Positions 26,387-60,268 of a stretch of DNA of 64,000 bases are shown in pieces (the stretch's first letter is position 1; each line of letters begins with the position of its first letter). The notes under the pieces are model-generated. The model did no database searches, had not been told where the DNA came from, and saw only the letters and a list, made by a program, of their open reading frames with translations. This DNA comes from Cenarchaeum sp. (lineage in GTDB: Archaea; Thermoproteota; Nitrososphaeria; Nitrososphaerales; Nitrosopumilaceae). The position numbers and the translations under genes are program-made. The DNA lies in the NCBI GenBank assembly GCA_965206845.1, contig OZ242221.1, forward strand, positions 1,152,001 through 1,216,000, in the 5' to 3' direction.

Positions 26387-26755
26387 GGGAATTATATGCC
26401 TGGTTAGCGACCATGCCTTTTTCTGGCGCTCTCTCCGGCACTTGGCTCTCGTGCCTTGTTAACGGAGCGCATGGGAGCAATCCCATGCTGGAATCTCGCG
26501 CCTTGGGACGACATTCCCTGCCGCCCTGTTGCCCAAATGGCAACTTGTATGCGGCATTGACGTCCGCGTTGTCTGCACATCCACATTTGTCATTCGTGCA
26601 TTTGAACTCCGCCTGCGCGGACTGTCTGTCGGATATGGGACTCCATGACGGTATTCCTTCAGTCAGCTCAATCAACAGCGCAGGAGAGCCAAGTGTGGGA
26701 TGGATCGCAGGAACGTCAGAAAAAGGCCTGGTTGCTAATCAAGTATATGGTTCCC
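26387..26755. mobile_element. Internally deleted TnpB-family element (MITE-like) with long inverted ends and ATTC duplication
   Basis: Ends GGGAA.../...TTCCC; ATTC at 26383-26386 and 26756-26759; tnpB C-terminal remnant FKCTNDKC..ADVNAA on the minus strand; ends homologous to those of 36041-37926. Confidence 0.82.
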
Positions 26756-33203: not shown

Positions 33204-34238
33204 TTGGAGGGAATCAGGGCCTACGGCGCAGAAGAGTTTGCCAAAAGCCTGGAGGGGAAGCGGTTTCTGTTCTCCCTTGTCATGTCGTACACCCGTACCT
33301 GCGAGATACCCGGCATCACCGTTGCCGGCGCAAACCCGGACATGCTAAAGTTCACGCCGCCGGCAGACGCAGAGTTCATCCGCTACGGGCGCTGCAGGTG
33401 CATCGACGCCATACCAATGACGCCAGACGGCAAGCCCACGCCGGCGCTCTTCACCCGCGTGGCGCTAAACGCAGCCGACATCCCCTTTGTCGCAATAGAC
33501 GCAGGCGGCGTCATAGAGCCGCAGATGCCCTTCATTCAGACAGGACTCAAACCGGGCGGGGACATCTCCCGGGAGCCGGCAATGTCCAAACCCTCCCTCC
33601 TGAGGGCCATAGAGTACGGCAAGGCGACGGGCCAGATGCTGGCGCCGCTGACTGACTGCCTGGTGATAGGGGAGAGCCTTCCGGGGGGGACCACCACGGC
33701 GCAGGCGGTGATGAGGGGACTGGGAATCGACGCCCGGTCAAGCTCCAGCATGCCCAAAAACCCCGTGTTCCTGAAGGAGAAGGTCGTAGCGGCCGCGCTG
33801 GACAGGCTGCATTCCAGCGACCCGCAAGACATAATATCACAGCTGGCAGACCCCATGATCCCGTTTGTTGCTGGCATGCTCTCATCGGCATCCCGGACCG
33901 CCCGCGTCATGCTTGCCGGGGGAACGCAGATGGCAGCCGTTCTGGCAGTCGCCAGATCCCTGAACCTTGGGATAAGGAGCACCGCCATAGGGACCACCAG
34001 GTACATCACAGACGACAGGACCGCCAACCTCCTGGACATGGCAGACGTGCCCGTGCTGGCAGTGGATCCAGGCGTCTCAGGCTCCCACATAGGCGGGCTC
34101 CGGGCGTTCTCCGAGGGCTTTGCCAAGGAGGGCGCCGGCGCCGGCGGCAGCATGATATCTGCCGTCCTCAAGGCGGGCATCACAACATCACGCCTGCGCA
34201 CCCTCGCAGAGGCCGAGTACGCCCGGATATCTACCTGA
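33204..34238 (+). CDS. cobT: Archaeal nicotinate-nucleotide:benzimidazole phosphoribosyltransferase
   Basis: GES.PGGTTTA, LAGGTQM, KEGAGAGG. Confidence 0.85.
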   Translation: MEGIRAYGAEEFAKSLEGKRFLFSLVMSYTRTCEIPGITVAGANPDMLKFTPPADAEFIRYGRCRCIDAIPMTPDGKPTPALFTRVALNAADIPFVAIDAGGVIEPQMPFIQTGLKPGGDISREPAMSKPSLLRAIEYGKATGQMLAPLTDCLVIGESLPGGTTTAQAVMRGLGIDARSSSSMPKNPVFLKEKVVAAALDRLHSSDPQDIISQLADPMIPFVAGMLSSASRTARVMLAGGTQMAAVLAVARSLNLGIRSTAIGTTRYITDDRTANLLDMADVPVLAVDPGVSGSHIGGLRAFSEGFAKEGAGAGGSMISAVLKAGITTSRLRTLAEAEYARIST

Positions 34239-35991
34239 CGGTGACTGACTTTGCAAGGTTTCTGGGCCGGTCGGGGTTCGTATCCCTCTCCAGGGCGGTA
34301 TAGTACGAGAGCAGCTGAATCGGGACTATCTCCACTATGGGGTATATGGACTCGTGCAGCTTTGGAATCCGGATCCAGTGATCGTACAGATCGCTGGGGC
34401 GGTCCGATACGCCGATTATCCTGGCGCCCCGGGCCTTGATCTCGCTTGTGCTGTTTATCATGTCCTGGTATGTCTCGTCATCTGGATTTATCACGATTAC
34501 ATGCGTGCCGGGGCCCATCAGCGCCAGCGGCCCGTGCTTGAGCTCGCCACCGGGAATGCCCTCGGCATGTATGTAGGAGAGCTCCTTGAGCTTCAGGGCG
34601 GCCTCGGCGGCGATCGGGTGGTGGACGCCCCTTCCCAGCACGTAGATGTCTGATGAGTCCCTAAGCTCCGAGGCAATCTTCCTTATCTTGTGATAGTCTG
34701 CCAGTATGCCGCTTATGGCATGGGATATCTCCCCAAAGTCCACCTTCAGGCACCCGTGGCACAGCCTGTCGACGATCTGGTATATGACCGCCAGCTGCGC
34801 GGTGAAACTCTTGGTGGCCGCCACGCCGATCTCGGGCCCGCAGTTCATGGCCAGCACCTGCGACGACTCCTGCGCCAGGGACGAGAGGAGCATGTTGACG
34901 ATGGAGATGACTCTGGCGCCCGACCTCTTTGCTATGCGCACAGCTTCTAAGACGTCGGCGCTCTCGCCGCTCTGGGATATTGCGATCAGCACCGAGCCCG
35001 GATCGATGGATCCTGGCGTAAACGGCATCTCGCTGGATATTATGGGCTCAAGCCGCACCCCTGCATACTTTGAGAGCAGGTATCTTGCCACCAAGGCGGC
35101 ATTGTAGCTGGTGCCGCTGCCTGTTATGTATGCGGACCCGGCATTCCGGATTAAGGTGGCGGCATGCTCTATGGCGTCTGCGGCCCCCTCGCCGGACCGG
35201 AGCACCGTGTCTGGCTGCTCGGATATCTCCTTTTGCGTAAAGTGGGCAAACTCGCCCCTGTACACGTCGGCAAACTCCTTTGAGACCTTGGTCAGCGGCC
35301 TCCTGACCCGGTTCCCCTCAAAGTCGTAGATGTCCAGACCCGCGTCCCCGATGACTGCCACGTCCCCGCTGTCCATGTATATGGCGTCATCGGTCTTCTC
35401 GATGAATCCCAATACGTCGCTTGACAGAAAGTGCGCGCCGCCCCTGACACCTATGATCAGCGGCACGTGAAGCCTGGCGGCTGCCAGCGTGCCGTCCTCA
35501 AACATGGCCACAAACGCATAGTCGCCACGTATCCTGCGCACGGTCCTGAGCACGGCCTCCAGGATGTCGCCCGCATCGTCATAGTTCTTCTGGAGCAGGT
35601 TTGCCAGCACCTCGGTGTCAGTCTCCGACTCGAATGTAAACCCGCAGGACAGCAGCTCCTCCTTGAGCTCCTTGTGGTTCTCGACTATGCCGTTGTGCAC
35701 CAGGGCCAGGCCGCCGGTGCTGCTAGAGTGGGGGTGCGCGTTGATATCCGTTATGCCACCGTGGGACGCCCATCGGGTGTGGCCTATTCCGATGGTGCCT
35801 TTCATCGAGTCCAGCCCGACGGACTTGTTTACGGCGGACACCCCGCCGACGCCCTTCCTTACCTGAATCCTGCCCCGGCTCCGGGTGGCCACGCCGACGC
35901 TGTCGTACCCGCGATACTCCATGCGCTTCAGTCCGTGCACCAGGATGGGGGCCGCGACGCCGCGCCCGCGATAGCCGATTATCGAACACAT
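34231..35991 (-). CDS. glmS: Glutamine--fructose-6-phosphate aminotransferase
   Basis: N-terminal MC, EYRGYDS, GHTRWA, SQSGE, KHGP, PRNLAKSVTV. Confidence 0.96.
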   Translation of the reverse strand: MCSIIGYRGRGVAAPILVHGLKRMEYRGYDSVGVATRSRGRIQVRKGVGGVSAVNKSVGLDSMKGTIGIGHTRWASHGGITDINAHPHSSSTGGLALVHNGIVENHKELKEELLSCGFTFESETDTEVLANLLQKNYDDAGDILEAVLRTVRRIRGDYAFVAMFEDGTLAAARLHVPLIIGVRGGAHFLSSDVLGFIEKTDDAIYMDSGDVAVIGDAGLDIYDFEGNRVRRPLTKVSKEFADVYRGEFAHFTQKEISEQPDTVLRSGEGAADAIEHAATLIRNAGSAYITGSGTSYNAALVARYLLSKYAGVRLEPIISSEMPFTPGSIDPGSVLIAISQSGESADVLEAVRIAKRSGARVISIVNMLLSSLAQESSQVLAMNCGPEIGVAATKSFTAQLAVIYQIVDRLCHGCLKVDFGEISHAISGILADYHKIRKIASELRDSSDIYVLGRGVHHPIAAEAALKLKELSYIHAEGIPGGELKHGPLALMGPGTHVIVINPDDETYQDMINSTSEIKARGARIIGVSDRPSDLYDHWIRIPKLHESIYPIVEIVPIQLLSYYTALERDTNPDRPRNLAKSVTVR

Positions 35992-36037
35992 ATGTCTACT
36001 TTATCCAGTACTGGCATATTTACAGATACTTGCGCGG

Positions 36038-37687
36038 TTACGGGGAATTATATACATGAGTACGCAGTACCCTGCCTTTTTGTGGCGCTCTTGCAATCCC
36101 TCCCACGCGTGGCTCTTGCGTGTTGTTTGCGGAGCGTCCGGAAGCAATCCCGGCCTGGAATCTTACGCCTTTGGACGACGATCCCCGCCGCCCTGCCGCC
36201 ATGGCTGTCGCCTTGGAGGCAATGTTATGCGCCGCGTTTATGTCGGCGTTGATGTCATTGTCACACTTGTCATTGGTGCAGTGGAACTTTCCCTGCGATA
36301 TGCGGGAGTCCCTGTCTTTGTGGCCGCACATGTGGCATGTGATGCTCGTGCCACTTGGGTCGACCGTGATGACCGCAACGCCCATGTTTTCGCATGTCTG
36401 CTCAATCTGGCTCAGGAACGTCCTCGGGCGCGAGTATGCCATCTCGCGGTTGAGGCCGGTCTTGGCGGAGCTTCCCTTGCCTTTGCCCCTGGCCGTCATG
36501 TTCCTGATGTTCAGGTCCTCGATGACAACCGTGCCGGCGCCGTCGGCTATCCTCTTGGACGCGTGTCGCTCCCAGTTGGTCTGCTTGTTGGCAATCTTCT
36601 CACGCTTCTTGCGGATCCTCCTTTGCAGATCCTTGTAGCTGCGGGACTTGGGGTTCCTGGACCTATTCCTGTTGCTGCCGTTCGTGTTTTTGCCCCCGTC
36701 GTTTGCGCCACCATTGCGAGCCTTGATCCTCCTGCTGCCGCTGCCTCCCCCCTTTCGTGAGAGCTCCGCATACATCTTCGATATGTCGTCGTTCTTCGTC
36801 CTCTTGCTGCCGTCCGGGATGTCGTGGAACTCGGCGTAGCCGGTATCAAGGTCGACGGTGGTGGCGTTGTGAACTATGCCCATGTCGACCCCCCTGATGA
36901 CATCTGACGTTTCGGGCTTTGGCGCCTCCATCCCGACCTGTATGTGAAGCCTGTACGTCCTGTTGTGTTTTTCGGTGAGCCTAGTGGTCTTCTTGGTCGT
37001 CTCCACCAACTGGAAGGATCGCATGTCCAATCCCTCAACGTCATCATGCACCTTCACGGTACCGATGCCGGGAAGCATCACCATGCCGTTGCCCTTGGAC
37101 ACCGGCTTCTCGAACACGGAGAGGGACCGCATTTTTCCCTTCCTCTTGAACAGGTCGCCCCTGTGGCTCCACTTGTTCTTTTTGTTGCTCCATTTGTTGG
37201 ATGGTAAATTTGCCGCCGTGTCAACATCCTCAACTCCCTCCTTTTCCCTGTAGCGCCTGGCCAGGTGTTTCCACAGTGCGTTGTTGCGGCGCTTTTTCCC
37301 GTTGGATTCTATGAACTTCTTTACCGCGTCCAGGCCCTGGCGGAGCCCTACCCTCTGAACCCTGCTGTCGCAGGCCTCCCTGATCCCGGCAGTCCGCGCA
37401 TAGTCATCATGGACCAGCCACGCCTTCGCGTTCCTCCATTTCGTGAGCATCCTGCAGAGGTCATAGAATGTTACGTCAGGGCTTCTGAGCGCCTCCTGGA
37501 CGGCCATGTTGAACGCCCACCTCTGTTGATCCATGTGACGCGATATGAGGACGGAAAGATCACCGGACTGGTCAAAGTCCGCCTTTATGGTGCGGATCAT
37601 CGTGTCTGGCGTAGCCGCCGTGGCGGATTTCGCTTTCGCTTCTGGCTCTGGCGCGGCTGCCGTTGCCACCATATCGATTGATTTCAT
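36038..37687 (-). CDS. tnpB: TnpB family RNA-guided endonuclease, ~550 aa, RuvC triad intact
   Basis: RuvC-I GVDMG, RuvC-II VIEDL, zinc finger CHMC...CTNDKC, RuvC-III ADINAA.NI; TTTTAT box near 37715 fits ATG 37687. Confidence 0.92.
   Translation of the reverse strand: MKSIDMVATAAAPEPEAKAKSATAATPDTMIRTIKADFDQSGDLSVLISRHMDQQRWAFNMAVQEALRSPDVTFYDLCRMLTKWRNAKAWLVHDDYARTAGIREACDSRVQRVGLRQGLDAVKKFIESNGKKRRNNALWKHLARRYREKEGVEDVDTAANLPSNKWSNKKNKWSHRGDLFKRKGKMRSLSVFEKPVSKGNGMVMLPGIGTVKVHDDVEGLDMRSFQLVETTKKTTRLTEKHNRTYRLHIQVGMEAPKPETSDVIRGVDMGIVHNATTVDLDTGYAEFHDIPDGSKRTKNDDISKMYAELSRKGGGSGSRRIKARNGGANDGGKNTNGSNRNRSRNPKSRSYKDLQRRIRKKREKIANKQTNWERHASKRIADGAGTVVIEDLNIRNMTARGKGKGSSAKTGLNREMAYSRPRTFLSQIEQTCENMGVAVITVDPSGTSITCHMCGHKDRDSRISQGKFHCTNDKCDNDINADINAAHNIASKATAMAAGRRGSSSKGVRFQAGIASGRSANNTQEPRVGGIARAPQKGRVLRTHVYNSP
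36041..36169 (-). ncRNA. Putative omega/reRNA scaffold overlapping the tnpB 3' end (left TIR)
   Basis: Canonical position for a TnpB guide scaffold; hairpins CCGGGA-TTGC-TTCCGG and GGGTAC-TGC-GTACTC; transcription is inferred, not shown. Confidence 0.55.
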
Positions 37688-37796
37688 TACCGCATTCAAT
37701 ATTCCACATCGCATAAAAGCGCCGATGCAACACTGTCATTAGTATGCAGACCATGCAGACTGTCAATACCGTAATGGCCATTTTTGCCACTGGTCG

Positions 37797-37926
37797 GGCG
37801 CGAGACTCCGGCGCGGGATTGCTCCCGCGCGTTCCGTGAATCAAACGCGAGAACCAAGCGTTGGAGGGATTGCAAGAGCGCCACAAAAAGGCAGGGGTAC
37901 TGCGTACTCATGTATATAATTCCCCG
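37797..37926 (+). ncRNA. Second, inverted copy of the putative scaffold (right TIR)
   Basis: Hairpin GCGCGGGA-TTGC-TCCCGCGC at 37811-37830 with compensatory changes relative to the left copy. Confidence 0.5.
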
Positions 37927-37927
37927 G

Positions 37928-38476
37928 TTACGCCTCTACGATTGCCACGTCGGGCGCAGGCGCCTCTTCTGCGGGAGCCTTCTTTAGGATGTCGCCAAAC
38001 GACGAGCCCGGCGTAAGCCCGATCCCGTCCTCCTCCGCCACTGTCACGATATACGACGGAATGTCAATTACCCTGTCCCCGATTGATATGTGCCCGTGCA
38101 CCACGGCCTGCCGTGCCTGGTATGCCGTCTTGAAGCCCATCCTCTTTACGATTATGGTCTGCAGCCTCCTCTGCAGCAGGTCGGTCACCTGCAGGTTCAG
38201 CACGTCATCCAGCGTTGACTCGGCCTGTATGAGGCCTATGCGCGCAAGCGAGCTGAGCAGTATCGGCTCCCGTTCCTGCCTCTCCTCCTGCCTCAGCGCT
38301 AGGAGAGCGCGGGCCTGCTTTCTTAGCCTTGAGAGCTCGGTGTGCGTCTTCCAGAGCTCCCTCTTGGTTCTGAGCCCAAAGTCGCCCAAGGTCTTGAGCT
38401 CCTCCACCTTTAGATCATAATTGAGCGGGCGCTTTGGCTTTCTCCAGTTCTTTCTTGGCAGCTTTGGATCTCCCAT
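37928..38476 (-). CDS. rps4: 30S ribosomal protein S4
   Basis: MGDPK, GL..KRELW, RRLQT, QARQ.V.HGHI. Confidence 0.96.
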   Translation of the reverse strand: MGDPKLPRKNWRKPKRPLNYDLKVEELKTLGDFGLRTKRELWKTHTELSRLRKQARALLALRQEERQEREPILLSSLARIGLIQAESTLDDVLNLQVTDLLQRRLQTIIVKRMGFKTAYQARQAVVHGHISIGDRVIDIPSYIVTVAEEDGIGLTPGSSFGDILKKAPAEEAPAPDVAIVEA

Positions 38477-58824: not shown

Positions 58825-60032
58825 GGGGTTGGTGCGTAATTCTCTGAACCGCCTAGACCAGTCCGATACGTTCAATGATCCGCGATCTCCCGCACGCGGC
58901 AATGAGCGAACACAGCAGACGGGAAGGATACTGGCAGTACTATGAACTGGCAAAGGAAGTCGAGGCACCCAGCCTGAAGAGGGAGCTGATCGAGATAATC
59001 CGGGAGAACCCTTGCCCGCGCCGAGAAAACGGCAACAGGGGCCGTCCCCCGGTTCACTCCAAGGAGAAACTGGACTTTGCCTGTCTGCTGATGATGGCAG
59101 GCAACAACACCTATCGCGGAGTCGAATCGGACCTGCGAGGCATGCGGACACCATGGGACAACGAGCCCGTCCCGGACCATACCACACTGGTCAGGCACCT
59201 CCAGACGATACCGGCAGACTGGCTCGATCTGATCGTGGCCGAGACGGCCCGCCGTTGCATCAAAGAGGCGGACGAGGCGACGGGCCCGCTGGGAGCCGAC
59301 AGCAGCGCGGCGGAGACCACTAGGTACGAATACGTCGAGAGGCCAAGCAGGAAGGAGCGCGACTTCGTCGAGACACGCCAAAAGACCTACTGGAAATACC
59401 ACATAACGGCCATCTTGGGCCTGCAGATCGTGCTGGCGGCGTTCACCACGCCCAGCAACATCAACGACACGACCATGCTTCCAGTCATGCTGGCTGAGAT
59501 CAGGCGTCGCGGGTTTGACTTTGCGGGGAACTTCTTTGACGGGGACAAGGGGTACGACTCTGACTACAACTGCGAGCTGCTGTTCTGGATGGGCATGATC
59601 CCCAACATCAAGCAACGGAAGGATGCCGTCAACCGTGGCAAGTCGCACAGGAGGAAGGCAGCCGGCATGTTCAGCGATAGCGAGTACAGAAAGAGGGCCC
59701 TGATAGAGGGCATCTTCGGGGCCGAGGAGACCCGGCGGCACCAGCTGCACTGCCGGTTCGTCCGGGAGGACAACCGGCGCCGGTTCGCCAAGGGAAGGGC
59801 GATCGCTTGGAACATCCGGGTCCTCAACCGGTTCGAGTGCGCCAACCGGCTAAACATGCCGATACCCTCCTACGGTGGCATGGCGCACGTGGAGTGCGCC
59901 TGATGATCCGACCCGTCAGTAGCTGATCACGGCGTGCGGGCAACAAAGCCCGACACACACCAAAGCACCGCCGGTGAAGATGCGGTGGGAGACACACATG
60001 AGCAGGACGGAGCAGAATTACGCACCAACCCC
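58825..60032 (+). mobile_element. IS5-like insertion sequence, 1208 bp
   Basis: Perfect 19-bp TIR GGGGTTGGTGCGTAATTCT (58825-58843 / 60014-60032); 9-bp TSD GATGTGGCG (58816-58824 / 60033-60041). Confidence 0.93.
58875..59903 (+). CDS. DDE transposase (IS5-like)
   Basis: PDHTTL, ADSS, KYH, GDKGYDS, YRKRALIEG.F (YREK-type). Confidence 0.88.
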   Translation: MIRDLPHAAMSEHSRREGYWQYYELAKEVEAPSLKRELIEIIRENPCPRRENGNRGRPPVHSKEKLDFACLLMMAGNNTYRGVESDLRGMRTPWDNEPVPDHTTLVRHLQTIPADWLDLIVAETARRCIKEADEATGPLGADSSAAETTRYEYVERPSRKERDFVETRQKTYWKYHITAILGLQIVLAAFTTPSNINDTTMLPVMLAEIRRRGFDFAGNFFDGDKGYDSDYNCELLFWMGMIPNIKQRKDAVNRGKSHRRKAAGMFSDSEYRKRALIEGIFGAEETRRHQLHCRFVREDNRRRFAKGRAIAWNIRVLNRFECANRLNMPIPSYGGMAHVECA

Positions 60033-60268
60033 GATGTGGCGTGGATATGGGATCGCGTCTTTTCCCCCATCCGGGCACGAGGACGCACGCCCGGAGAGGC
60101 CTCTGCGCCTGGCCCAAGGCAGCAGGTGATCCCTGTACTGGCGTGGCATGTGGGCTCATCTGCCGTACCAAACCCGGTGGAGAGCCTCCCGGGTATGCGA
60201 TACGGCTTGGCGCTCCCGCATCTGCACGGCGCGGGCGGATCCGGTGACGGCTCGTAGCCGGTACAGTA

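What the first reader, a model, noticed from the sequence alone, without database searches (positions are those of the whole stretch)
36041..37926. Transposase-free TnpB element with ~130-bp terminal inverted repeats and a target-site duplication
Seen: 36041-36169 is the reverse complement of 37797-37926. The outer 63 bp are identical apart from one extra G; the inner 66 bp match 47/66 without gaps (hand count). The flanks duplicate GTTA (4 bp), or CGGTTACG (8 bp) if the ends are drawn 2 nt further in. The only cargo is a tnpB with an intact D-E-D triad. Established: IS200/IS605 (Y1 TnpA) and IS607 (serine TnpA) elements, the usual prokaryotic TnpB carriers, have asymmetric ends with no long TIRs and make no TSDs. 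Inference: this is a distinct TnpB element class, moved in trans by a different enzyme or by a TnpB-dependent route.
Basis: partly seen in the sequence, partly recalled or inferred. Interest (0 to 1): 0.9.

Follow-up and report, generated by a model that had tools for sequence, protein, structure and literature searches.

The report
TnpB gene riding IS1595-type transposon ends
This is a mobile element that carries only an RNA-guided nuclease gene (tnpB) and its guide-RNA scaffold, but it has the inverted ends and 8-bp target duplications of a cut-and-paste (IS1595-type) transposon, so a transposase encoded elsewhere most likely moves it.

Summary
The element is window 36043-37924 (1882 bp), flanked by an 8-bp duplication, CGGTTACG. 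One public contig joins the flanks exactly, leaving a single CGGTTACG.

It is one of about 17 tnpB copies in this 1.65-Mb archaeal genome. All end in GGGAATTATATAC...; 10 of 16 end pairs have perfect 8-bp duplications. A ~99% identical contig gives two exact filled/empty site pairs.

The ~130-bp inverted repeat is specific to this copy; 12-33 nt is usual. Its inner part is the 3' half of a covarying omegaRNA-like scaffold that overlaps the tnpB 3' end.

The genome has no Y1 or serine transposase. The same terminus heads a broken IS1595-family transposase gene, and one intact IS1595 gene exists. In a related genome, two composite elements (IS1595 transposase + tnpB) each have their own perfect 8-bp duplication.

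Best reading: a non-autonomous IS1595-type element carrying TnpB/omegaRNA, mobilised in trans. DDE-associated TnpBs with inverted ends are already published (PMC10691335). I found no text naming IS1595 as a partner. I rate it a new variant of a known kind.

The parts
36043..37924 (-). Whole element (1882 bp): LE, tnpB, omegaRNA-like scaffold, RE. tnpB reads on the minus strand, so the right end (RE) is at the low-coordinate side.
   Evidence: Conserved terminus GGGAATTATATAC at both ends. A contig in run X1 joins 36034 to 37925, skipping 1890 nt.
36035..36042 (.). Target-site duplication, copy next to the RE: CGGTTACG
   Evidence: Read directly. The 8/8 flank match is listed.
37925..37932 (.). 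Target-site duplication, copy next to the LE: CGGTTACG
   Evidence: The empty-site joint keeps one copy.
36043..36171 (-). Right end (RE): terminal inverted repeat plus the 3' half of the omegaRNA-like scaffold. It overlaps the C-terminal tail of the tnpB ORF.
   Evidence: Found at 78-88% identity at the 3' end of tnpB in the other copies. Synonymous divergence falls to 0.14 here against 0.73-0.75 elsewhere, with dN/dS 1.18.
36043..36250 (-). omegaRNA-like structured region, 8 helices; the putative guide would continue into the flank at 36042 and below.
   Evidence: RNAalifold on 17 copies: 47 pairs, 10 with compensatory changes. 97.9% of cells are paired against 36-50% when partners are slid; 50 compensatory cells against 17.3 +/- 2.9 in shuffles. 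No Rfam match.
36038..37714 (-). tnpB ORF, 558 aa. Its stop codon lies in the flanking duplication because of a 1-nt indel in the RE.
   Evidence: PF07282 E=8.3e-16 and PF01385 E=4.4e-9. NF040570 guided_TnpB 130 bits against a cut-off of 100. D277/E399/D491 invariant. dN/dS 0.18-0.24 across 66 pairs.
37797..37924 (+). Left end (LE): the terminal 13-20 nt shared by the family, plus an unusually long inverted copy of RE sequence that is specific to this copy.
   Evidence: The LE is 92% identical to the REs of the copies at genome 750072 and 872715, but 85% to its own RE.
34231..35991 (-). Flanking gene glmS (not part of the element)
   Evidence: SIS and GATase domains. Directly follows rps4 in 4 of 5 relatives.
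37928..38476 (-). Flanking gene rps4 (not part of the element)
   Evidence: S4 domain and Ribosomal_S4 N-terminal domain.

Best explanation
The element is a non-autonomous member of an IS1595-type (DDE transposase) transposon lineage in Nitrosopumilaceae. Between the transposon ends the cargo is tnpB plus an omegaRNA-like scaffold. Shown: it inserts with exact ends GGGAATT...AATTCCC and an 8-bp target duplication, it is polymorphic between near-identical strains, and its tnpB is under purifying selection. Inferred: an IS1595-family transposase encoded elsewhere binds the shared 13-20-nt termini and moves it. This genome has one intact 309-aa copy and one broken copy that carries the same terminus. 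Also inferred, by analogy with IS605/IS607 TnpB: the scaffold ends at the right terminus, so the guide is transcribed from the flank (the 8-bp duplication plus downstream DNA). TnpB would then cut the empty allele (flank, single duplication, flank) and favour its repair from a filled copy. The base just 5' of the LE-side duplication is G in all 17 copies of this subfamily, which makes it a candidate minimal TAM. The ~130-bp inverted repeat of this copy is a secondary feature: its LE has acquired RE/omegaRNA sequence from another copy.
For: Ends and duplications:
- 24 exact GGGAATTATATAC sites in the genome, almost all at tnpB element ends.
- 10 of 16 end pairs have 8/8 flank duplications, 2 have 7/8, 1 has 6/8, 1 has 5/8, and 2 have none.

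Mobility:
- Contig L062 is ~99% identical to the genome over 10 kb.
- L062 lacks the element at genome 972386-974566 and has a single AATCACAA there. It carries another copy (TSD TAACGTAG) at a site that is empty in this genome.
- An empty rps4-glmS joint is seen in run X1.

Not IS605 or IS607:
- 0 matches to PF01797 and PF00239 in a genome that is 99.99% complete; both controls were positive.
- None of 10 other multi-copy IS families has these ends.

Link to IS1595:
- The exact 13-mer lies 46 nt upstream of a broken IS1595 transposase gene. Its first 20 nt match three LEs at 19/20.
- An intact IS1595 transposase is present: PF12762 E=8e-34, NF033547 E=6e-47.
- 15 of 22 IS1595 homologue loci in the family have GGGAATTAT[A/C] 54-104 nt upstream of the gene. 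5 complete elements have 8/8 duplications.
- In G163, two composite elements (IS1595 left end, transposase, internal right end, tnpB, RE) have different perfect duplications, GATACCGG and TCGCGGTA.
- An IS1595-family member is reported to make A/T-rich 8-bp direct repeats (PMC12561309, passages read).

omegaRNA and TnpB:
-.

Clade:
- 30 of 36 rows in one Nitrosopumilaceae TnpB clade have these ends, against 0 of 49 rows outside it.
Against: - No transposase lies inside this element, and no experiment shows that the IS1595 enzyme acts on it.
- The one intact IS1595 gene in this genome has a diverged left end (18/23 by my hand count of the and 42 sequences). No matching right end was found within about 4 kb, so it may be inactive or may not recognise these ends.
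- Its N-terminus is only 65% identical to that of the broken copy that carries the exact terminus.
- Only the outer 13-20 nt are shared with IS1595 elements.
- The composite elements are in another genus and carry a TnpB subfamily of about 450 aa.
- The homing and TAM part is inference only. The flanking G is found in 10 of 14 elements of other subfamilies, 0 of 2 composites, and 4 of 6 TnpB-less IS1595 ends. It could therefore be a target preference of the transposase.
- One covariation measure was not significant: number of pairs with a change on both sides, 10 against 8.3, reached by 79 of 500 shuffles. The structure was also derived from the same alignment it was tested on.
- The RNA evidence consists of contigs only.
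Confidence: 0.78

Rival explanations
1. An ordinary IS200/IS605 (IS1341-group) or IS607 tnpB-only element, in which the inverted repeat and the flank repeat are coincidental.
For: tnpB-only elements are common in archaea, and their ends are hard to define (PMC3119063, passages read). The TnpB matches IS200 and IS607 TnpB models weakly.
Against: 8-bp duplications of varying sequence in 10 of 16 pairs. Exact empty sites. The same inverted termini in all copies. No Y1 or serine recombinase in the complete genome. Those families have no TIRs and make no TSDs (PMC13565253, sections 5.1-5.2, passages read).
Confidence: 0.02
2. A TIR/TSD element moved by some other DDE (or other) transposase that is not in this genome or not recognised. 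On this reading the similarity to IS1595 ends reflects shared ancestry or chance.
For: Only 13-20 nt are shared. The intact IS1595 copy here has a diverged end and no detectable partner end. Other families such as IS66 also make 8-bp duplications: an IS66-like element nested in L062 shows about 8-10 bp.
Against: The expected number of chance exact 13-mers is about 0.05 in the genome (my arithmetic), yet one sits in the correct orientation 46 nt before an IS1595 start codon. 15 of 22 homologues have the terminus. Two composite IS1595+tnpB elements moved as units with their own duplications. The 10 other IS families have different ends.
Confidence: 0.12
3. TnpB itself, with its RNA, moves the element (a TnpB-dependent route). 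On this reading the 8-bp duplication comes from staggered TnpB cuts.
For: There is no transposase in the element. TnpB is intact and under purifying selection.
Against: The guide is copied from the current flank and so cannot specify new, unrelated target sites. TnpB-less IS1595 elements with the same terminus make the same 8-bp duplications. Short derivatives of 369 bp and 706 bp without tnpB exist. TnpB is not required for IS605 transposition (PMC13565253, passage read).
Confidence: 0.03
4. The long (~130-bp) inverted repeat is functional: the LE copy gives a second, outward-reading guide RNA, so the element targets both flanks.
For: The LE carries about 121 nt of RE-like sequence, including the last helices. 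One RNA-library contig joins 36165 and 37802 on opposite strands.
Against: Only 2 of 15 full-size copies have long repeats. The LE copy lacks the upstream half of the scaffold (helices 1-4). The LE is closer to the REs of other copies (92%) than to its own RE (85%), which suggests recombination. The RNA contig has mismatches and may come from another copy.
Confidence: 0.05

Closest known systems
DDE-transposase-associated TnpB branches (DDE-1 to DDE-6) of Altae-Tran et al. 2023, PNAS (PMC10691335; section 9 read in full, other passages by search)
   Same: TnpB inside elements with inverted terminal repeats. The tnpB 3' end lies within 250 bp of a transposon end. Solo TnpBs with the same ends are inferred to move in trans. 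Composite transposase+tnpB forms exist.
   Different: The main text names only IS630 as a partner, and a 2026 review names ISL2, IS630 and IS1031 (PMC13565253). IS1595 appears in neither main text. Here nearly all copies are transposase-free, they are abundant (about 17 in 1.65 Mb, and 5 to 56 TnpB matches each in 5 related genomes (45, 35 and 56 in three of them; matches are not copy numbers)), and they are archaeal. I could not see the supplementary files, which may already list this group.
IS1595 family insertion sequences (for example ISApl4, PMC12561309)
   Same: Short terminal inverted repeats and A/T-rich 8-bp direct repeats. The terminus GGGAATTAT fits the end 'ggnnatTAT' that I recall for the ISNwi1 group in ISfinder (recalled, not checked with a tool).
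   Different: This element encodes no IS1595 transposase. Its cargo is tnpB plus an RNA scaffold, and it is 1.8-2.6 kb rather than about 0.7-1.3 kb.
IS200/IS605 IS1341-group (tnpB-only) elements and IS607
   Same: The cargo is tnpB with a structured RNA overlapping its 3' end and ending at the right end. The likely role is RNA-guided cleavage of the empty site.
   Different: Those have asymmetric ends with hairpins, no TIRs and no TSDs, insert next to a 4-5-nt motif, and use a Y1 or serine TnpA. None of these features is met here.
Fanzor1 / Fanzor2* in eukaryotic and viral TIR/TSD transposons (PMC10711439, passages read)
   Same: A TnpB-family nuclease as the only gene of a non-autonomous cut-and-paste element with TIRs and TSDs. 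The guide RNA 3' end has to cope with a TSD next to the end.
   Different: This is a prokaryotic host and a typical TnpB with a canonical D-E-D triad. Whether the TSD is read as guide or as scaffold here is unknown.
MITEs and other non-autonomous DDE elements
   Same: Ends and TSD length match an autonomous partner that is encoded elsewhere. Short deletion derivatives exist (369 bp and 706 bp).
   Different: This is a coding element whose gene is under purifying selection, not a short non-coding remnant.

Membership tests
TnpB / OMEGA effector | RuvC-like D-E-D triad and zinc finger; match to curated TnpB models | tested here: met
   NF040570 at 130 bits (cut-off 100); PF07282 and PF01385 above cut-off. 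D277, E399, D491 and four Cys invariant in 12 copies. PDB sequence hits to TnpB and Cas12f.
TnpB / OMEGA effector | Structured omegaRNA overlapping the tnpB 3' end and ending at the transposon right end | tested here: met
   8 helices, 97.9% of cells paired, 50 compensatory cells against 17.3 in shuffles. dS falls five-fold in the overlap. No Rfam family matched. Transcription was not shown.
TnpB / OMEGA effector | RNA-guided, TAM-dependent DNA cleavage | not testable with these tools
   Only indirect evidence: G 5' of the LE-side duplication in 17 of 17 copies.
IS200/IS605 (including the IS1341 group) | No terminal inverted repeats; asymmetric ends with subterminal hairpins | tested here: not met
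   The same 12-33-nt terminus is inverted at both ends in the family.
IS200/IS605 (including the IS1341 group) | No target-site duplication; insertion 3' of a fixed 4-5-nt motif | tested here: not met
   Variable 8-bp duplications in 10 of 16 pairs, plus exact empty sites.
IS200/IS605 (including the IS1341 group) | Y1 HUH TnpA in the element or in the genome | tested here: not met
   PF01797: 0 matches in the complete genome; the control matched in 6 of 14 known genomes.
IS607 | Serine recombinase TnpA; no TIRs or TSDs | tested here: not met
   PF00239: 0 matches; the control matched in 12 of 14 known genomes. TIRs and TSDs are present.
IS1595 family (as a non-autonomous derivative) | Element encodes a DDE_Tnp_IS1595 transposase | tested here: not met
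   None in this element or in any of the 15 full-size copies in this genome. One intact and one broken gene lie elsewhere. It is therefore not an autonomous member.
IS1595 family (as a non-autonomous derivative) | Terminal inverted repeats shared with IS1595 elements | tested here: met
   13/13 and 19/20 nt shared with the end of the broken IS1595 copy. 15 of 22 homologue loci have GGGAATTAT[A/C] at the expected place.
IS1595 family (as a non-autonomous derivative) | 8-bp target-site duplication | tested here: met
   Also found for TnpB-less IS1595 elements here and for ISApl4 in print.
IS1595 family (as a non-autonomous derivative) | The IS1595 transposase acts on the tnpB-side end | tested here: inconclusive
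   Two composite elements bounded by an IS1595 left end and a tnpB right end each have their own perfect 8-bp duplication. This is sequence evidence from another genome, not an assay.
DDE-associated TnpB branches (PMC10691335) | Inverted terminal repeats, with the tnpB 3' end within 250 bp of an end | tested here: met
DDE-associated TnpB branches (PMC10691335) | Falls in one of the published branches DDE-1 to DDE-6 | not testable with these tools

The most novel reading that the evidence does not exclude
A whole clade of archaeal TnpBs has become the standard passenger of IS1595-type DDE transposons, mostly as transposase-free copies. The OMEGA module has adapted to a transposase that has no fixed target motif and makes duplications. 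On this reading the guide starts with the 8-bp duplication, the TAM has shrunk to a single G (or BG) 5' of it, and only insertions that happen to create this TAM persist through homing on empty alleles. This would be a prokaryotic counterpart of the Fanzor-in-TIR-transposon arrangement and a natural source of near-TAM-less TnpBs.
Probability: 0.3. Interest if true: 0.75.

Novelty: new variant of a known kind. Interest (0 to 1): 0.6.

Why it matters
TnpB biology has been worked out for transposons that excise without a scar (IS605, IS607). A recent review calls the pairing of OMEGA with DDE transposases in prokaryotes rare and asks whether it can work at all (PMC13565253, passages read).

Here the pairing is abundant, diversified and recently active. 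There are polymorphic insertions between ~99% identical strains, exact empty sites, intact nuclease genes under purifying selection, and a covarying RNA scaffold that ends at the transposon terminus. This gives a concrete system for three questions: how a guide RNA copes with a target-site duplication, what TAM such a nuclease needs, and whether homing helps a cut-and-paste element.

It also matters for annotation. These genes would by default be labelled IS200/IS605 family, which is wrong for their mobility.

Tried and rejected
- Close relatives of the TnpB were not found at E<=1e-20 in the 40 related genomes searched. They were also not found with single-protein patterns in genome contigs.
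- The metagenome-contig scan returned only distant TnpBs (24-53% best-segment identity). 1 of those 80 loci has a near-match to the terminus, which I take as chance.
- The nucleotide-level empty rps4-glmS site could not be sought in relatives because their spacers do not align. Only synteny is shown: glmS follows rps4 in 4 of 5 relatives.
- Rfam gave 0 matches at E<=1 on the element.
- No right end was found for the intact IS1595 copy within about 4 kb.
- The ORFs near other motif hits (genome 976525, 1008018, 1064403, 1079757, 1300194) showed nothing transposase-like by eye. I did not scan them against Pfam.
- The IS66-like gene inside the L062 copy is a nested insertion with its own ends and duplication, not the mobilising enzyme.
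- RNA-library contigs (X16, X18, X19) touch the RE and LE regions with mismatches. As contigs, possibly from other copies or from DNA, they show neither transcription nor RNA ends. Stretches without cover there mean nothing.
- A maximum-likelihood tree with the default method did not finish, so I used FastTree instead. That tree has local support values only, a midpoint root, long branches, and rows chosen by similarity to my query.
- In the tree, TIR status came from a crude motif test, and I relabelled L159 and L164 by hand as TIR-bearing.
- I considered and rejected a TnpB-driven transposition route and a dual-guide role for the long repeat (see the rival explanations).
Supplementary files of papers were not opened. 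Additional Files 10-11 of PMC10691335 may bear on whether this IS1595 link is already catalogued.
- Print searches: 'IS1595'+'TnpB' gave 9 papers, none about an association judging by their titles and abstracts. 'TnpB'+'Nitrosopumilus' gave 0. 'TnpB'+'Thaumarchaeota'+'transposase' gave 0. 'IS1595 family'+'ISNwi1' gave 0.
Full report
**1. The observation**

The region holds a real inverted repeat. The outer ~63 nt are identical apart from one 1-nt indel, and the inner part has diverged. The only long ORF is a 558-aa tnpB on the minus strand, window 36038-37714. It lies between glmS (34231-35991) and rps4 (37928-38476).

The window is positions 1152001-1216000 of a single-contig genome of 1.65 Mb and 57% G+C, rated 99.99% complete.

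**2. A family with short inverted ends and 8-bp duplications**

- The ~130-nt end matches 24-25 places in the genome. tblastn with the TnpB finds about 17 loci at 58-72% identity.
- In every copy the conserved block lies at the 3' end of tnpB.
- Searching that 13-mer shows the same terminus, inverted, upstream of nearly every tnpB.
- Of 16 end pairs 0.7-2.7 kb apart, 10 have identical 8-bp flanks, 2 have 7/8, 1 has 6/8, 1 has 5/8, and 2 have none. One of the last two is a 706-bp deletion derivative.
- For this copy the duplication is CGGTTACG.
- 12 of 15 full-size copies keep an ORF of 543 aa or more.
- Typical inverted-repeat length is 12-33 nt. Only this copy (~121 nt) and one other (~126 nt) are long, and three are about 40-49 nt.
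- This copy's LE is 92% identical to the REs of two other copies but 85% to its own RE. I read the long repeat as acquired RE sequence.

**3. Mobility is shown by empty sites**

A public contig (L062) is ~99% identical to this genome over about 10 kb. Its record is labelled as a Dehalococcoidia MAG.

- L062 lacks the copy at genome 972386-974566 and has a single AATCACAA there.
- L062 carries another copy, flanked by TAACGTAG, at a place where this genome has a single TAACGTAG.
- For the element in question, one contig of run X1 joins window 36034 to 37925. It skips 1890 nt (1882 + 8), with 8 letters fitting either side, at depth 68 against about 230-250 for the flanks.
- Caveats on that joint: the shorter side is only 27 nt, and X1 may be the source sample.
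- In 4 of 5 relatives glmS follows rps4 directly. Their spacers do not align at the nucleotide level.

**4. The inner part of the 'repeat' is an RNA scaffold**

- An alignment of the last 230 nt of 17 copies folds into 8 helices with 47 pairs, 10 of which show compensatory changes.
- On the same structure, 97.9% of cells pair, against 36-50% when partners are slid.
- Compensatory cells number 50, against 17.3 +/- 2.9 in shuffles (0 of 500 shuffles reach the observed value), and 1-6 in the slid controls.
- One measure was not significant: the number of pairs with a change on both sides is 10 against 8.3, reached by 79 of 500 shuffles. The structure was also derived from this same alignment.
- Over 66 pairs of 12 intact genes, dN/dS is 0.24 (core) and 0.18 (RuvC and zinc-finger part).
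- In the tail (aa 501-548), which overlaps the RE, dS falls to 0.14 from 0.73-0.75 and dN/dS is 1.18. The tail is therefore conserved as nucleic acid, not as protein.
- No Rfam family matches.

**5. The protein**

It is a TnpB. D277, E399, D491 and the four zinc-finger cysteines are invariant in the 12 intact copies.

**6. Who moves it**

What is absent:
- The genome has no Y1_Tnp or Resolvase match, and both controls were positive.
- Ten other multi-copy IS families are present: several IS4/IS5-type, one rve-type, one IS110-type, and one unassigned. All have different ends.

What links it to IS1595:
- One of the few exact 13-mers not at a tnpB element lies 46 nt upstream of the start of a broken IS1595-family transposase gene. 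That gene has an in-frame stop and an IS insertion.
- The first 20 nt of that end match three LEs at 19/20.
- One intact 309-aa IS1595 transposase exists. Its upstream end is related but diverged, and I found no partner end for it.
- Homologues occur in 10 of 150 other genomes of the family. 15 of 22 loci have GGGAATTAT[A/C] 54-104 nt upstream of the gene. 5 complete elements have perfect 8-bp duplications.
- In G163, two composite elements have the order: IS1595 left end, transposase, internal right end, tnpB, RE. Each has its own perfect 8-bp duplication, GATACCGG and TCGCGGTA. In the second the transposase has decayed.
- These composites show that an IS1595 left end and a tnpB right end were used together in transposition.
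- In G083 an IS1595 right end and a tnpB LE lie 6 nt apart.
- An IS1595-family member is reported to make A/T-rich 8-bp repeats (PMC12561309, passages read).

**7. Distribution**

- Five other Nitrosopumilaceae genomes hold many TnpB matches: 5, 8, 35, 45 and 56 (matches are not copy numbers).
- Of the 30 loci fetched from them, 19 distinct pairs of the same terminus were found. 13 have 8/8 duplications and 1 has 7/8.
- In a FastTree of 85 TnpBs, one clade (local support 95) holds 36 Nitrosopumilaceae rows, 30 of which have these ends. None of the 49 rows outside the clade has them (caveats under Tried and rejected).
- The protein collection holds 147 relatives at E<=1e-10 among the candidates scored. 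None carries a name from its source.

**8. An orientation-specific G**

- In the tnpB orientation, the base just 5' of the LE-side duplication is G in 17 of 17 copies of this subfamily. The duplication itself starts with T in 13 of 17.
- The mirror position after the RE-side duplication is unbiased.
- In other subfamilies the base is G in 10 of 14 (my reading), in the composites 0 of 2, and at TnpB-less IS1595 left ends 4 of 6.
- It may be a minimal TAM or a bias of the transposase. I cannot tell which.

**9. Literature**

- IS200/IS605 and IS607 have no TIRs and make no TSDs (PMC13565253, passages read).
- Altae-Tran et al. 2023 describe six DDE-associated TnpB groups with inverted terminal repeats, and solo TnpBs with the same ends moved in trans (PMC10691335, section 9 read in full).
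- That main text names IS630 as a partner. The review names ISL2, IS630 and IS1031. IS1595 appears in neither main text.
- Fanzors sit in TIR/TSD elements, with the TSD forming part of the RNA scaffold (PMC10711439, passages read).
- The kind is therefore known. The IS1595 partner, the transposase-free abundance in Nitrosopumilaceae, and the activity evidence are what I could not find in print. The supplements remain unseen.

**10. Verdict**

Best explanation: a non-autonomous IS1595-type element carrying TnpB and an omegaRNA-like scaffold, mobilised in trans (confidence about 0.78). The homing and TAM steps are inferred, not shown.

Noticed in passing
window 26387-26755 (genome 1178387-1178755): A 369-bp MITE-like derivative whose two ends both resemble the tnpB right end (70-73% identity to the query end). 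It has no tnpB and no clear 8-bp duplication.
   Followed up: partly
window 58825-60033 (genome 1210825-1212033): A copy of a ~1.2-kb IS with a 342-aa DDE_Tnp_1 transposase and ends CGGGGTTGGTGCGTAATTCT. There are about 7 copies in the genome, one of them inserted inside the tnpB element at genome 870565-872715.
   Followed up: partly
whole genome G000: For 1.65 Mb, the genome is unusually rich in repeats. It has at least 10 multi-copy IS-like families, plus families of very long repeated ORFs of up to 2917 aa.
   Followed up: no
L062 (whole locus, 11853 nt): This public contig is labelled as a Dehalococcoidia MAG but is ~99% identical to this archaeal genome over about 10 kb. It is probably mis-binned.
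   Followed up: partly
L062 2737-4726 and 6363-6591: The tnpB element in L062 carries two nested insertions. One is an IS66-family element (443-aa transposase, own inverted ends, duplication of about 8-10 bp) in its LE. The other is a ~229-bp MITE that shares ends with an IS4-like family and interrupts tnpB. That MITE has several copies in G000.
   Followed up: partly
L106 5698-7030 (G041): A different 373-aa TnpB, bounded by a different ~27-nt inverted repeat (GGTTCTGTTGGGTTAACGGGTGTTGA), sits next to an IS1595 transposase gene. It falls outside the main clade on a long branch.
   Followed up: no
L111 / L119 (G118; the same loci were also fetched as L090 / L092): 2131-bp IS1595 elements with perfect 8-bp duplications carry about 1.1 kb of extra sequence beside the transposase gene. 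That sequence holds only a 93-aa ORF, and I did not assign it a function.
   Followed up: no
window 36038-36171: In most copies the tnpB frame stays open through the RNA scaffold and stops 5 nt inside the terminus. In this copy a 1-nt indel shifts the frame, so the stop falls in the flanking duplication.
   Followed up: partly
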